From the NCBI RefSeq assembly GCF_009914755.1, contig NC_060925.1: a stretch of DNA of 64,000 nucleotides. The stretch is one strand, 5' to 3'. Numbering within the stretch: position 1 is the stretch's first letter; each line of letters starts with the position of its first letter. Position numbers and translations under genes: made by a program. The DNA comes from the human T2T-CHM13v2.0 reference genome, Homo sapiens. Below are positions 37,512 to 42,891 of this stretch, in pieces. The notes below the pieces were generated by a model. That model worked only from the letters and a program-made list of their open reading frames with translations, did not search any database and had not been told where the DNA came from.

Positions 37512-38398
37512 AGGAGTTCGAGACCAGCCTGGCCAACATGGTGAAACTCTGTCTCTACTAAAAATACAAAAATTAGCTGGGCATGGTGGCAGGTGCCTGT
37601 AATCCCAGCTACTCAGGAGGCTGAGGCAGGAGAATCACTTGAACCCAGGAGGCAGAGGTTGCAGTGTGCTGAGATTGCACCATTGCACTCCAGCCTGGAC
37701 AACAGAGCGAAACTCCATCTTAAAAAAAAAAGGAATAGGAAAAGAAAAAAATAATCTCACTAGCACAGAACCCAGATTTCTATCTATCTTAGTAAACAAT
37801 CAAAAGCATATTTCACTTTATGCCTCAATTGACTGCTGGCCAACCATAACTTCTATAGCAGCTCTCACTTTGATACTCTCTAGTAAATTTAAGTTATATT
37901 TAAGGTTAATTTGAGTTTAATTTAATTGTTTAATAATAAATTTGACTGATAAGATTGTATTAAAATTTAGGTTATGTTTACTTAAGTGAAGCAAGGAGGT
38001 CACTCAGAATGAAAACTTTACATTTCCAGTACAAACCTATGGAGTTGTCATGTATTATTCTAGTTTATCATATGGTCATGTTCTTTAGAATTTGTCACCA
38101 GGCTACTATAATAAAACTCAATTTACCAAATTCTTCAAGATTTAACTTGGTAATGAAGCTACAAAATTTATGAATAAGTACAGACTGCCCTTTTTGAACA
38201 GACTGTTCAAACTAAGGATGGATCTAATTGATGAACTAGGTAAAAACTACTCTTGAGGGGGAAAAAAAAAGCCAAGGTCCTAAAGAAATCATCTAAGGTT
38301 GTTAAAAGCAGAAAAATTCTGATCTTACAAGGTAATAAACAGCAGTCTTCTCAAAAGCTCTTAATCTGAGCCAGATGATTGCTAGTACGAGTAGCCCA
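37512..38398 (+). repeat. Inverted duplication arm A (truncated Alu + ~660 bp with no repeat family I recognise)
   Basis: Reverse complement of arm B; a manual alignment of 37741-38161 with 42241-42660 gives ~20 differences in ~420 bp. Confidence 0.97.
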
Positions 38399-39240
38399 TG
38401 AGCCACTGCGCCCGGCCCTACAACTGCATCTTACTCCCAAGTTTCTCCAGTCATTCCTGTCAGTAGGTTGTGACTTATAAAAAGCAGGCTCTGAATTGGA
38501 GTTTAGTATTTAGACTGTTAGGGAATGACCTTAGGATAAAAACCACAGGAGGAGTAGGAAGCTGGGTAGGGCAGATTTGACACTTGCCTTGATTGGGGGT
38601 GCAGGAGGTTGTATATTATACTTAGTCAACTTTCTTTTGAAACGTTTTTTGTTTTATTTTCATACTTGAGTGGATAAACTTACAGCTTACTGAACCATCC
38701 TCCTGTGTCTAAAATAACTTCCATTTTCCTTAGGCAAAACCAATTCCCTTCTTCAAAGATGTTCCTCATGCCCTTTCTCAGGTGTTGTATTTTTCTTACA
38801 AAAAAACTTGCCTTTTTCCCTATACTCTAGTAAATTCAAAATGAGGATTGGAAAGGGAGCTTATTTGAGGAAACTGACAATAATATATTTTAAGACAAAA
38901 ATTAGCCTTAAATGTTTTATGATAATCTAGTATTGTACATCTGTATCTCAATTCCCCTAAAATAACTCCCAGCCTGGCACAGTCTCAGGCTGTTGTAATC
39001 CTCAAGAGGCTGACATGGGAGGCTCACTTGAGCCCAAGAATTAAAATCTAGTCTGGGCAACATAAGGAGATCCTGTCTCAAAAAAAAAAAAAAAACTATC
39101 ATTTAATAAGTTGTACATTTCTATAATGTTCCACTTTTAAACTATAGTCAATGTTACTGAATTAGGATTATTTTTTTAAAAGCATAAAAGGTGATGGACT
39201 ATATGTATTAAGTGTATCATTTACCTTTTTCTCTTTTTAG

Positions 39241-39294
39241 AAACAGTATCTCACCTCCCTAAACTGGTTAATAGTGGCATGGAAGATCCATTTG
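39241..39294 (+). other. PHACTR4: Exon 2 (54 nt: 38 nt 5'UTR + 16 nt CDS)
   Basis: Strong acceptor ...CTCTTTTTAG| and donor TTTG|GTGAGT, in unique sequence. Confidence 0.9.
39279..39294 (+). CDS. PHACTR4: First coding segment of phosphatase and actin regulator 4 (M-E-D-P-F plus a phase-1 G); CDS continues beyond the window
   Basis: GGC ATG G strong Kozak context. MEDPF followed by a G-initial codon matches the recalled PHACTR4 N-terminus (MEDPFEEADQ...). The identification rests on only 5 codons plus gene architecture. Confidence 0.85.
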
Positions 39295-39410
39295 GTGAGT
39301 ATCACCTACATTGTTCTTAGTAAATGACATTTCTGTTTTATCCTCACCTCCATTAAAGCTTTGAGAGTAAATTGGTTTTTTTTCATATTCAGTATGCTAC
39401 TCTCTAGAAT

Positions 39411-39640
39411 AATGGGTCTCAAACTTTTTGCTTCTATAAGAATTCAGTTATATATTTAATGATAGAGTGCCAATTACCTTTTGTTTATGTGACATATCTA
39501 TTGATGTTTGCTGTATTACAAATTAAACCTGAGAAACTTTAAAAATATTAATTTGTTTAAAAACAACATTGATAAACCCATTATATATTACACAAATAAC
39601 ATTTTTAATTAAAAAAATCAAGAACCATTTGACAAGATAA
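39411..39640. mobile_element. Charlie1-like hAT terminal fragment
   Basis: TCTCAAACTTTTTG...TTTTGTTTATGTG...ATAAACCCATTA resembles the recalled Charlie1 end. Confidence 0.55.
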
Positions 39641-41525
39641 AATGAGAAATTTAAATTTCTCTATCTTAGCCAGGAGTGGTGGCTCACGCCTATAATCCTA
39701 GCACTTTGGGAAGCTGAGGCAGGCAGATCACTTGAGGCTAGGAGTTCGAGACCAGCCTGGCCAACATGACAAAACCCCGTCTCTACTAAAAATACAAAAA
39801 TTTAGCTGGGCATGGTGGCACACACCTGTAATCCCAGCTACTCTGGAGGCTGAAGCATGAGAAACGCTTGAACCCAGGAAGCAGAGGTTGCAGTGAGCTG
39901 AGATCGCGCCACTGCGCTCCATCCTGGGCAACAGAGCAAGACTCTGTCTCAAAAAAAGAAAAATAAGTAAATAAACTCTGTCTTAATCACTCAGTAACTT
40001 ATGTATACTTCTCTTTGGTTGGAAATGTAGTTCTGCTCATATTTCAGAAACAATGTGTGCTTTGTAGTGCTTCATTAGTACTTGGCCAATGGAAGATAAC
40101 ATGAAAGTGACTGGGCGCAGTGGCTCATGCCTGTAATCCCAGCACTTTGGGAGGCTGAGATGGGCAGATCACTTGAGGTCAGGAGTTTGAGACCAGCCTG
40201 GCTGACATGGTGAAACCCCATCTACTAAAAATACAAAAATTAGCTGGGCATGGTAGTGGGTGCCTGTAATCTCAGCTACTCAGGAGGTTGAGGCAGGAGA
40301 AACACTTGAGGCCTGGAAGGCGGAGGTTGCAGTAAGCCGGGATCATGCCACTGCACTCCAGCCTCGGCAACACAGGGAGACTCTGTCTTAAAAGAAAAGA
40401 AAAGAGAAAGATAACGTGGAAGTAATCATAATAGCAGGCATGTGTAATATATATGTACGTGTGTGTGTCTATATATGTGTGTGTGTGTATATATATATAT
40501 ATTTTTTTTTAATTTATTTTTTTTGAGATAGTGTCTCACTCTGTCGCCCAGGCTGGAGTGCAGTGGCACCATCACAGCTCACTGCAGCCTTGACCTCCCG
40601 GGCTCAGGCAATCCTTTCAACTCAGCCTCCTGAGTAGCTGGGACTATAGGTGTGCACCCCTATGCCCGACTGATTTTTTTTTTTTTTTTTGGTAGAGATA
40701 GGGCTTTGCCTTGTTGAGCAGGCGGCTCTGGAATTCATAGGCTCAAGGGATCCACCTGCCTTGGCCTCCCAGAGTGTTAGAATTACAGGCGTGAGCCACT
40801 GCACCCAGCCTAATATTTCTAATTAAGTTTAGCCTGTGTATATTTCATCTAGCAACATGAGTAAAGGAATGTAAGTCTAGATATACAAAGGTTTAATGTC
40901 TGCCTTTTTGGCGATAAAGTCATTTACTGTGTGTGGAACCCCTTTTCTTTCTTTCTTTTTTTTTTTTTTTTCCAAGACTGGATATCACTGTGTTGCCCAG
41001 GCTGGAGTTCAGTGGCTATTCACAGAAGCAATCATAGCATGCTACATCCTTGAACTCCTGGGCTCAAGCAGTCTTCCTGCTTTAGCCTCCCACTGTGTTT
41101 GGATGGTAAGGGGTGAAGAAGACTGAGTAAAGAGGCTGTTGCATTCAGCATTAATTATGCATATTTCCCACGTAGCTAGGACTACAGGCATACTCCACCA
41201 CTCCTGGCCCTATTTTTAACTGATGCTCATTTCAAAGTGAGAGATATGTCTTAGGATATCAGATTTTTTGAAACCATAACATTGACTAGGAAGACTAGTT
41301 AGGAAGTACTTTTCATTTTAAAATACACATTAGCAAAAAAGAAAAAAAAGAAATCAGAGGCAGTTTTACTTGTTTAATTTCAGCGTACTGGAGGAAGCAT
41401 CCGATTCAAGCATTTTCTGATCCTTCATCACACGGAAAGAAGTCTGAATCCCTTTTTATGCCAGTGCAGCTTGAGGAAGTATAGTAAAAATACTACTATA
41501 TAATACTAACTGAGGTTAGGCTTTT

Positions 41526-42891
41526 TGGGCTACTAGTACTAGCAATCATCTGGCTCAGATTAAGAGCTTTTGTCTTGCTTTGAGAAGACTGCCCTTTATT
41601 ACTTTGTAATATCAGAATTTTTCTGCTTTTAACGACCTTAGATAATTTCTTTAGGACCTTGGCTTTCTTTCCCCCCTGAAGAGTAGTTTTTAGGATTATG
41701 CCTAGTTCATCAATTAGATCCATCATCAATTAGATCCATCCTTAGTTTGAACACAAGAGGGCAGTCTGTACTTCTTCATAAATTTTTTTTTTTTTTTTTT
41801 TTTTTTTTTTTTTTTTTGAGACAGAGTCTCGCTGTGTCCCCAGGCTGGAGTGCAGTGGGGTGATCTGGGCTCGCTGCAATCTCCGCCTCCCGAGTTCAAG
41901 CCATTCTCCTGCCTCAGCTTCCCGAGTAGCTGGGACTACAGGCACGTGCCACCACACCCAGCTCATTTTTTGTATTTTTAGTAGAGACAGGGTTTCACCA
42001 TCTTGGCCAGGATGATCTCGAGCTCCTGACCTCATGATCTGCCCACCCGAGTAGCTGGGACTACAGGCACGTGCCACCACACCCAGCTCATTTTTTGTAT
42101 TTTTAGTAGAGACAGGGTTTCACCATCTTGGCCAGGATGATCTCGAGCTCCTGACCTCATGATCTGCCCACCTTGGCCTCCCAAAGTGCTGGGATTACAG
42201 GCGTGAGCCACCGTGCCCAGCCACTTATTCCTAAAGTTTGTAGCTTCATTACCAGGTTAAATCTTGAAGAATTTGGTAAACTGAGTTTTATTATAGTAGT
42301 CTGGTGACAAATTCTAAAGAACATGACCATATGATAAACTAGAATAATACATGACAACTCCGTAGGTTTGTACTGGAAACCTAAGTTTTCATTCTGAGTG
42401 ACCTCCTTGCTTCACTTAAGTAAACATAACCTAAATTTTAATATAATCTTATCAATCAAATTTATTATTAAACAATTAAATTAAACTGAAATTAACCTTA
42501 AATATAACTTAAATTTTCTAGGGAGTATCAACGTGAGAGTTGCTATAGAAGTTATAGTTGACCAGTAGTCAATTGAGGCATAAAGTGAAATGTGCTTTTG
42601 ATTGTTTACTAAGATAGGTAGAAATTTGGGTTCTGTGCTAGTGAGATTATTTTTTTCTTTTTCTTTTCTTTTTTTTATTTGAGACGGAGTTTTGCTCTTG
42701 TCGCCAAGGCTGGAGTGCAATGGCACAGTCTCACTTCACTGCAACCTCCACCTCCCGGGTTCAAGTGATTCTCCTGCCTCAGCCTCCTGAGTAGCTGGGA
42801 TTACCAGCACCTGCCACCATGCCCAGCTAATTTTTGTATTTTTAGTAGAGATGAGGTTTCACCATGTTGGCCAGGCTGGTCTTGAACTCCT
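41526..42891 (-). repeat. Inverted duplication arm B (contains an extra Alu at ~41783-42221)
   Basis: See arm A; ORF-track entries 37639..37914(+) and 42481..42726(-) give near-identical peptides. Confidence 0.97.
41921..42170. repeat. Perfect 125-bp tandem duplication inside an Alu
   Basis: 41921-42045 is identical to 42046-42170 by base-by-base reading. Confidence 0.97.

What the first reader, a model, noticed from the sequence alone, without database searches (positions are those of the whole stretch)
37512..42891. A ~0.9-kb, ~95%-identical inverted duplication brackets the start-codon exon
Seen: arm A (37512-38398) is the reverse complement of arm B (41526-42891, minus a later Alu insert). 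About 660 bp of the match is not a repeat I recognise, so this is not an ordinary inverted Alu pair. A manual alignment gives ~20 differences in ~420 bp, including a 60-bp perfect block. The 3.1-kb loop (38399-41525) contains the 54-nt ATG exon. Known: long intronic inverted repeats form pre-mRNA duplexes that are ADAR substrates and promote skipping or back-splicing of enclosed exons, and in DNA they can drive NAHR inversions. Inference: this could be a primate-specific structural switch. Looping out exon 2 would remove the AUG and change the N-terminus or output, and recombination between the arms would flip the start exon.
Basis: partly seen in the sequence, partly recalled or inferred. Interest (0 to 1): 0.8.

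Follow-up and report, generated by a model that had tools for sequence, protein, structure and literature searches.

The report
Inverted duplication flanking PHACTR4 start exon
A 0.9-kb piece of the intron after the start-codon exon of human PHACTR4 was copied in reverse into the intron before it roughly 20-30 million years ago, so the unspliced RNA can form an unusually long double-stranded stem around that exon, but nothing in the sequence suggests it has been kept for a purpose.

Summary
Arm A (37512-38398) is the reverse complement of arm B (41526-42891) once a later Alu insert (~41787-42222) is removed. Identity is 93.7% over 876 aligned bases, and 94.8% in the 646-nt non-Alu core. The core occurs nowhere else in the T2T-CHM13 genome, so this is a local duplication, not an interspersed repeat. 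Arm B is the parent: it has the full-length Alu with target-site duplications, while arm A has that Alu cut at the breakpoint. The 3.1-kb loop holds exon 2 with the ATG.

The predicted arm-arm RNA duplex (-1067 and -316 kcal/mol) is 2.4-4 times stronger than any inverted Alu pair tested across the exon. It dominates a joint fold.

The "switch" reading has no support in the sequence. Differences are scattered as chance predicts. Transitions show no bias toward keeping base pairs (21 G·U vs 18 A·C). The longest identical run is 61 nt, short for homologous recombination. No paper found describes this repeat, an inversion here, or an exon-2 circle.

Most likely it is a neutral double-strand-break or template-switch scar that forms an intronic dsRNA.

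The parts
37512..38398 (+). Arm A, the derived inverted copy (887 nt). It consists of a 5'-truncated Alu (37512-~37721), an A-rich tail and linker (to ~37752) and a locus-specific core (37753-38398). It lies in intron 1, 842 nt upstream of the exon-2 3' splice site.
   Evidence: The Alu probe match starts at Alu position ~70.
41526..42891 (-). Arm B, the parental copy (1366 nt including a later Alu insert). It lies in intron 2 and starts 2231 nt downstream of the exon-2 5' splice site.
   Evidence: Continuity with a full-length Alu plus target-site duplications is shown.
41787..42222 (-). Alu inserted into arm B after the duplication. It is absent from arm A and flanked by a ~13-17-nt target-site duplication, seen as the overlap at 38163-38179 in arm A coordinates. 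It carries a pure 35-nt homopolymer tail and a 100%-identical 125-nt internal tandem duplication (41921-42172).
42690..42963 (-). Full-length Alu ('Alu#2'). Its 3' ~200 nt and tail are part of the duplicated unit. It is flanked on both sides by the 13-mer AAAAATAATCTCA. Arm A keeps only the 3' copy of that 13-mer (37747-37759).
   Evidence: 4 of 4 window matches of the 13-mer lie at these sites; 0 expected by chance
38399..41525 (+). 3127-nt spacer or loop. It contains exon 2 and three Alus (39677-39939 +, 40120-40372 +, 40539-40799 -).
39241..39294 (+). PHACTR4 exon 2 (54 nt) with the annotated start codon at 39279. A polypyrimidine tract and AG lie upstream, and GTGAGT lies downstream.
   Evidence: and the hub's RefSeq table
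37460..37511 (+). 52-nt unique stretch between the neighbouring minus-strand Alu (37187-37459) and arm A. It is either the old target flank or filler.
   Evidence: 1 of 1 genome match at up to 3 mismatches is itself
38399..38418 (-). Orphan 20-nt fragment of an Alu 5' end abutting the inner edge of arm A. It is a 16/20 direct repeat of the 5' end of the Alu at 37439-37459. It may be a target duplication or a template-switch filler left by the insertion.

Best explanation
This is a fixed, locus-specific inverted micro-duplication in PHACTR4.

Origin. About 0.9 kb of intron 2 was copied once, in reverse orientation, into intron 1, 3.1 kb upstream. The copied piece is a unique AT-rich core plus the 3' two-thirds of an adjacent Alu. 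The mechanism was non-homologous: a double-strand-break 'patch' or a replicative template switch. The event happened after that Alu had inserted and before a second Alu landed in the parental arm. By divergence that is roughly 20-30 million years ago.

History since. The two copies appear to have drifted apart neutrally.

Consequence. Until intron 1 or intron 2 is removed, the PHACTR4 pre-mRNA can fold the two arms into a two-part stem of ~670 + ~220 bp that encloses exon 2. I infer this is a nuclear ADAR substrate. At most it gives a modest nudge toward exon-2 skipping. I do not read it as a selected switch.

What is shown and what is inferred. Shown: the anatomy, uniqueness, polarity (B to A), relative order of events and thermodynamic dominance of the duplex. 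Inferred: the mechanism of origin, the absolute age, dsRNA formation and editing in vivo, and neutrality.
For: Anatomy and identity.

Uniqueness: three whole-genome searches of CHM13 found the core only at the two arms. One search gave 3 of 3 matches at the locus. One search gave 2 of 2. One search gave 2 of 4, and the other two were 39-50-nt hits to the A-rich linker.

Polarity: the B locus reads 13-mer, Alu#1, 13-mer, Alu#2, 13-mer, core. Arm A has Alu#2 cut at ~position 70 and only the last 13-mer.

Non-homologous junctions: there is no homology beyond either edge. There is no poly(A) at either end of arm A. An orphan 20-nt Alu bit sits at the inner edge. This fits the 'class 2' DSB-patch description in PMC5110952, section 9.

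Order of events: the Alu at 41787-42222 interrupts arm B only, and has its own target duplication.

Age: core K2P distance is 0.054. I compared this with a recalled human-macaque neutral divergence of ~0.065.

Neutral decay: the longest identical run is 61 nt against a simulated mean of 61.6 (P=0.45). Transitions split 21 G·U to 18 A·C.

Duplex: -1066.7 kcal/mol (640 of 668 nt paired) and -315.5 kcal/mol, against -254 to -447.5 for the 6 inverted Alu pairs tested across the exon. In an MFE fold of both arms with their flanking Alus, 827 arm-arm pairs form (401+224+202).

No other function in the core: no Rfam match lies in the core, and the only ORF is 54 aa.
Against: No RNA data were available, so dsRNA formation, editing and any splicing effect are untested. 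A null result from two sequences is a weak test of neutrality.

The position is striking: the arms bracket the exon that carries the start codon. The core helix (414 of 427 nt paired, 97%) would fall in the rare 'long and highly paired' class (>300 bp, >96% paired). That class held 2,018 of 5,134,754 predictions, 88% of them intergenic (PMC11838218 section 10). Survival of such a stem inside a gene is therefore not the default.

The fold left out the 2.95-kb loop interior and ignores co-transcriptional kinetics. A minus-strand Alu only 52 nt upstream of arm A could capture arm A's Alu part first (pair I3).

The age rests on recalled rates and assumes no gene conversion.
Confidence: 0.65

Rival explanations
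1. Regulatory RNA switch. Arm-arm pairing in the pre-mRNA loops out exon 2. This causes regulated exon1-exon3 splicing (loss of the AUG) or back-splicing of exon 2, tuned by ADAR or helicases.
For: The duplex is the strongest of the pairings tested across the exon. Intronic inverted Alus shift a flanking exon from constitutive to alternative splicing in the experiments summarised in the abstract of PMC2533698. If exon 2 is skipped, both arms end up in one lariat, which is consistent with a looping-out model (inference).
Against: There is no sign of selection to keep pairing (21 G·U vs 18 A·C; random spacing of differences). The only PHACTR4 circle whose exons I read is from exons 7-8 (the search listed 11 of 11 papers, and I opened two). 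A 54-nt single-exon circle is very small for back-splicing (recalled, not tested). The stem brings together points 36 kb and more than 21 kb away from the exon-1 donor and the exon-3 acceptor, so it approximates those sites only slightly (inference from the hub's exon table).
Confidence: 0.12
2. Recombination substrate. The arms mediate a recurrent or polymorphic ~4-5-kb inversion that flips the start exon in some haplotypes.
For: The arms are inverted repeats of ~94% identity only 3.1 kb apart. Small inversions between inverted repeats do occur in humans (PMC3961182).
Against: The arms are 0.9 kb, and the longest uninterrupted identity is 61 nt. In PMC3961182 Table 1 the validated inversions have repeats of 1.6-32 kb, and none is at this locus (passages seen). 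There is no gene-conversion-like long identical tract. In CHM13 exon 2 lies in the orientation of the gene (hub table). The full-text search 'PHACTR4' + 'inversion' listed 10 of 11 papers, and none is about a human inversion here, judged by title and abstract only.
Confidence: 0.05
3. The core is an unrecognised interspersed repeat, or the long terminal inverted repeats of an old DNA transposon, rather than a local duplication.
For: The core is AT-rich (32% GC). The genome search tool warns that it scores only the best candidates and skips very common words.
Against: Only the two arms match in 3.1 Gb, in three searches, two of them at E<=10. The duplicated unit carries the same Alu fragment, the same tail and the same 13-mer. 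So the copying post-dates an Alu insertion and cannot be the ends of an old transposon.
Confidence: 0.02

Closest known systems
Inverted-repeat Alu pairs (IRAlus) flanking exons
   Same: These are intronic complementary sequences on both sides of an exon that can form pre-mRNA duplexes. Such duplexes are edited by ADAR and can alter splicing of the flanking exon (abstract of PMC2533698).
   Different: Only ~24% of each arm is Alu. The rest is single-locus sequence. The stem is about three times longer and 2.4-4 times more stable than the Alu pairs tested here. The arms are copies of each other rather than independent insertions.
Templated sequence insertions, class 2 (DSB repair 'patches'; Onozawa and Aplan, PMC5110952)
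   Same: A stretch templated from elsewhere is inserted without poly(A) and without an L1 target site, with NHEJ-like junctions (section 9; junctions).
   Different: The template lies only ~3 kb away in the same gene, and the insert is fixed and old. Arm A is flanked by a possible 20-nt direct repeat (16/20), whereas class 2 events are described as lacking target duplications. An RNA or DNA origin cannot be told apart.
Inverted segmental duplications that mediate polymorphic inversions (InvFEST set, PMC3961182)
   Same: Paired inverted low-copy repeats of >90% identity flank a few kb of unique DNA containing genic sequence.
   Different: The arms are 0.9 kb, against 1.6-32 kb in that set. There is no long tract of near-identity, and no inversion is known here.
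Long, highly paired intramolecular dsRNAs (dsRNAscan class, PMC11838218)
   Same: By RNAduplex the core helix is >300 bp and 97% paired. It is intronic and would be removed by splicing, as the paper describes for nearly all genic cases.
   Different: Most members of that class form between inverted LINE elements and are intergenic. This one is a non-transposon duplication inside a gene. The whole outer helix is 95.8% paired, just under their 96% cut.

Membership tests
Local (intrachromosomal) inverted duplication | Two copies in opposite orientation at one locus, with similarity far above chance | tested here: met
   876 aligned nt at 93.7% identity on the minus strand
Local (intrachromosomal) inverted duplication | The sequence is not a dispersed repeat, so no further copies exist in the genome | tested here: met
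   the core matches only the two arms in CHM13. The only extra hits are two matches of 39-50 nt to the A-rich linker. The tool's sensitivity caveat applies.
Segmental duplication in the usual catalogue sense (>=1 kb, >=90% identity; definition recalled) | Length of at least 1 kb | tested here: not met
   Arm A is 887 nt, and the non-repeat core is ~646 nt
Segmental duplication in the usual catalogue sense (>=1 kb, >=90% identity; definition recalled) | Identity of at least 90% | tested here: met
   93.7% overall
Inverted Alu pair | Both arms consist of Alu elements that inserted independently | tested here: not met
   The Alu part is ~210 of 887 nt. Both arms share the same tail, the same 13-mer and the same unique core.
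L1-mediated insertion (class 1 TSIP or retrocopy) | Poly(A) tail at one end of the insert and a TTTT/A-type target site | tested here: not met
   Neither end of arm A has a poly(A) or poly(T), and the flanking direct repeat is GC-rich Alu 5'-end sequence. Features taken from PMC5110952 section 9.
L1-mediated insertion (class 1 TSIP or retrocopy) | Target-site duplication of at least 5 bp | tested here: inconclusive
   A 20-nt direct repeat (16/20) at 37439-37459 and 38399-38418 brackets the 52-nt stretch plus arm A. It is Alu sequence and could be coincidental.
Class 2 templated insertion (DSB patch) or replicative template switch | Junctions without extended homology, with microhomology, filler or microdeletion | tested here: met
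   Local alignments of all flank pairs give only 5-13-nt chance matches. An orphan 20-nt Alu bit and a unique 52-nt stretch lie at the junctions.
Class 2 templated insertion (DSB patch) or replicative template switch | An empty pre-insertion site in an outgroup | not testable with these tools
circRNA-promoting flanking complementary sequences | Complementary sequences in the introns on both sides of the circularised exon or exons | tested here: met
   The arms lie 842 nt upstream and 2231 nt downstream of exon 2
circRNA-promoting flanking complementary sequences | An observed back-splice junction of the enclosed exon | not testable with these tools
   No RNA data were available. The one PHACTR4 circle whose exons I read is from exons 7-8.
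NAHR-competent inverted repeats | Arms long and identical enough for homologous exchange | tested here: not met
   The longest identical run is 61 nt. Validated cases have arms of 1.6-32 kb. The threshold itself is recalled, not computed.
Long, highly paired dsRNA (>300 bp, >96% paired; PMC11838218) | Length and fraction paired | tested here: inconclusive
   The core helix has 414 of 427 nt paired (97.0%). The whole outer helix has 640 of 668 paired (95.8%). Their pipeline was not run.

The most novel reading that the evidence does not exclude
A catarrhine- or ape-specific, non-transposon 0.9-kb stem acts as an editing- and helicase-sensitive gate on the only AUG-bearing exon of the main PHACTR4 transcript. 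When the stem persists, exon 2 is looped out and exon 1 joins exon 3. That lowers or re-starts translation of this PP1 and actin regulator, and the resulting single lariat carries a near-perfect dsRNA of more than 600 bp that could reach innate sensors when debranching or editing fails.
Probability: 0.07. Interest if true: 0.7.

Novelty: new member of a known kind. Interest (0 to 1): 0.3.

Why it matters
If the stem forms in vivo, it is one of the uncommon long, nearly perfect, non-transposon dsRNAs inside a human gene. It also sits around the exon that supplies the start codon, so it is a clean natural test case. It can show how much a very strong intronic duplex does to splicing, editing and lariat fate, compared with ordinary Alu pairs.

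Its junctions also record how a small inverted duplication arose: the parent and copy can be told apart, and there is a datable Alu before the event and another after it.

As it stands it looks like a neutral scar. That is a useful negative, because it suggests that a strong stem bracketing a key exon can persist without any visible sign of selection.

Tried and rejected
- Soft-masking. The window file is all upper case, so it gives no repeat calls.
- Earlier findings.
- Interspersed-repeat reading. Rejected after three whole-genome searches and a window self-BLAST.
- Structured RNA gene or miRNA in the arms. All 40 sub-threshold Rfam matches in 36500-44000 lie in Alu segments or other repeats (SRP-like and Alu-derived miRNA families). 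None lies in the core and none reaches its gathering score.
- Coding potential. There is one ATG ORF of 54 aa in the core, and I did not pursue it.
- Gene conversion or maintained pairing. Not detected.
- Source of the 52-nt stretch. It has no other copy in the genome at up to 3 mismatches and only 9-15-nt chance matches in the window.
- L1-mediated origin. Rejected for lack of poly(A) and of a target motif.
- Literature. The searches were 'PHACTR4'+'circRNA' (11 papers), 'PHACTR4'+'inversion' (11 papers) and 'PHACTR4'+'inverted repeat' (2 papers). I saw listings only, except PMC12704311 and PMC10795376, where I read passages. None describes this repeat. The supplement of PMC12695637 lists PHACTR4 twice, both in the 3'UTR. 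One search was rejected because a term was too long, and I repeated it with shorter terms.
- Alu subfamily assignment.
- Supplementary tables.

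
Full report

Yes, and at the stated coordinates. The repeat finder lists the collinear inverted pairs 37509-37704/42699-42894, 37722-38018/42383-42679, 38013-38179/42223-42389 and 38258-38355/41579-41676. blastn joins them into two pieces:
- 37512-38179 against 42891-42223: 92.8% over 671 columns.
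- 38163-38398 against 41786-41526: 82.4% over 262 columns, low because of 9 gap openings.

I removed the Alu that interrupts arm B and aligned the arms globally. This gives 876 aligned bases, 55 mismatches (39 transitions, 16 transversions; 93.7% identity) and 10 gap events.
- The Alu part is 90.9% identical.
- The non-Alu core (37753-38398) is 94.8% identical (33 mismatches in 636 bases; K2P distance 0.054).
Both hold.

The 3127-nt spacer contains the 54-nt exon 39241-39294. It has a polypyrimidine tract and AG upstream, GTGAGT downstream, and the ATG at 39279.

**2. Is it a local duplication or a repeat family?**

- The core of arm A, searched against the whole 3.1-Gb assembly, matched only itself and the two pieces of arm B (3 of 3 matches).
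- The inner part of arm A, searched at E<=10, matched itself and arm B (2 of 2).
- The outer core of arm B, searched at E<=10, matched itself, arm A, and two 39-50-nt hits to its A-rich linker on other chromosomes (4 matches).

The tool warns that it scores only the best candidates, so very old, diverged relatives cannot be excluded. That would not change the conclusion that the two arms are copies of each other.

In a self-BLAST of the window the arms are the only long low-copy repeat. Median depth is 1 in the core and 69 in the Alu part.

Other checks found no function in the core. No Rfam family matches there, and all 40 sub-threshold hits in 36500-44000 lie in Alu or other repeat segments. 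The only ORF in the core is 54 aa.

**3. Which arm is the original, and in what order did things happen?**

Read on the minus strand, the B locus is: 13-mer, Alu#1, 13-mer, Alu#2, 13-mer, core. The 13-mer AAAAATAATCTCA occurs 4 times in the window against 0 expected: three times at these places and once in arm A. This is the signature of target-site duplications around full-length Alus.

Arm A carries Alu#2 only from about its position 70. It has the same tail, the last 13-mer and the core. So arm B is the parent and arm A is the copy, and the outer breakpoint fell inside Alu#2.

Because an Alu is part of the unit, the event is primate-specific by construction.

The Alu at ~41787-42222 interrupts arm B only. 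It has its own ~13-17-nt target duplication, seen as the 38163-38179 overlap of the two BLAST pieces. It therefore came later. A 16-nt tandem duplication in arm B (41707-41740) explains one of the indels.

The core distance of 0.054 is a little below the human-macaque neutral divergence I recall (~0.065, not from a tool). That points to roughly 20-30 million years if there has been no gene conversion. This is an inference, and no other primate genome could be searched here.

**4. How did it arise?**

No homology continues past either edge of arm A.
- The outer edge joins a truncated Alu to a 52-nt stretch that is unique in the genome.
- The inner edge abuts an orphan 20-nt fragment of an Alu 5' end (38399-38418).
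- That fragment is a 16/20 direct repeat of the 5' end of the neighbouring minus-strand Alu (37439-37459). Most of the 4 differences are of the fast CpG-decay kind, by my reading against a recalled Alu consensus.
- There is no poly(A) at either end and no A/T-rich target.

This rules out an L1-mediated insertion as defined in PMC5110952, section 9. It fits a double-strand-break 'patch' (their class 2) or a replicative template switch. The 20-nt repeat may be a staggered-break duplication or a filler. I hold this mechanism as the most likely but unproven; an outgroup empty site would decide.

**5. What would it do?**

At the RNA level, both arms are on the transcribed strand of PHACTR4, arm A in intron 1 and arm B in intron 2.

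RNAduplex gives the following energies:

| Pairing | Energy (kcal/mol) | Paired |
|---|---|---|
| Outer helix | -1066.7 | 640 of 668 nt |
| Inner helix | -315.5 | 202 of 219 nt |
| Six inverted Alu pairs tested across exon 2 | -254.4 to -447.5 | n/a |

I also ran an MFE fold of both arms with their flanking Alus, leaving out the 2.95-kb loop interior. In it the arms pair with each other (401+224+202 = 827 pairs) rather than with neighbouring Alus.

By this measure the core helix is 97% paired and >300 bp long. That is the rare 'long and highly paired' class of PMC11838218: 2,018 of 5,134,754 predictions, 88% of them intergenic (section 10). The whole outer helix is 95.8% paired, just under their cut.

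Two caveats follow from the anatomy.
- The arms are in different introns. The intramolecular stem therefore exists only until one intron is spliced out, unless exon 2 is skipped, in which case both arms share one lariat.
- A minus-strand Alu only 52 nt upstream of arm A (pair I3) is transcribed first and may capture arm A's Alu part kinetically.

I infer that the stem forms in a fraction of pre-mRNAs and is edited by ADAR in the nucleus, as shown for intronic Alu pairs (abstract of PMC2533698).

**6. Is it a switch?**

I found nothing in the sequence to say so.
- The differences between the arms are spaced as random placement predicts. The simulated mean longest run is 61.6 nt, and the probability of a run >=61 nt is 0.45. 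So there is no conversion tract and no protected block.
- In the sense-strand duplex, the 39 transitions split into 21 G·U (pair kept) and 18 A·C (pair broken). That is what neutrality gives.
- For recombination, 0.9-kb arms with at most 61 nt of uninterrupted identity are well below the repeats of validated human inversions. Those are 1.6-32 kb, and none is at this locus (PMC3961182 Table 1 passages). In CHM13 the exon lies in gene orientation.
- For back-splicing, the one PHACTR4 circle whose composition I read is from exons 7-8 (783 nt; PMC12704311 passages).
- The PHACTR4 editing and dsRNA entries I found are in the 3'UTR (PMC10795376 passage; supplement of PMC12695637, 2 of 2 rows).
- Full-text searches for PHACTR4 with 'inversion' (11 papers) and 'inverted repeat' (2 papers) gave nothing on this element by title and abstract.

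These are absences in a partial library and in two-sequence tests. They lower the switch reading but do not exclude it.

**7. Verdict**

The functional story is unsupported.

The best reading is an old, fixed, neutral templated-insertion scar that happens to create a very strong intronic stem around the start exon (confidence 0.65). The rivals and their confidences are a splicing switch at 0.12, an inversion substrate at 0.05 and an unrecognised repeat family at 0.02.

It is a new member of a known kind. Interest is moderate to low (0.3). The case is easy to test with public RNA-seq, primate assemblies and pangenome data, and its geometry is unusual enough to be worth that quick look.

Noticed in passing
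window 41783-42222: The Alu that landed in arm B has a pure 35-nt homopolymer tail (41783-41817) and a 125-nt internal tandem duplication with 100% identity (41921-42172, 2.0 copies). Both look young and may vary in length between people. The RefSeq 'enhancer' 41796-41855 from the hub table sits on this tail and the Alu 3' end.
   Followed up: partly
window 42642-43308: Two full-length minus-strand Alus lie in tandem (43033-43290 and 42690-42963, ~84% alike). Each is bounded by the same 13-mer AAAAATAATCTCA (3 copies here). This suggests two insertions into the same target, or re-use of the first element's target duplication.
   Followed up: partly
window 37166-37731: The insertion of arm A put a plus-strand Alu fragment only 52 nt from a full minus-strand Alu. 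Together they form a close inverted Alu pair (223-nt arms, 84% complementary, 120 nt between the matched arms). Closely spaced inverted Alus are said to be unstable and under-represented (recalled, not checked).
   Followed up: no
window 22196-22279 and 29986-30069: This is an 84-nt direct low-copy match at 94% identity within intron 1. A weaker one (80%, 105 nt) links 22006-22110 and 40988-41088; the latter overlaps a sub-threshold SRP-like (Alu-related) Rfam hit at 40972-41208.
   Followed up: no
window 41707-41740: There is a perfect 16-nt tandem duplication (2.1 copies) inside arm B that is absent from arm A. It accounts for one of the six indels in the core alignment.
   Followed up: yes
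whole window: A single Alu probe finds 95 Alu-like segments covering 21,542 of 64,000 bases. Exon 2 therefore has many competing inverted Alu partners besides the duplication.
   Followed up: partly
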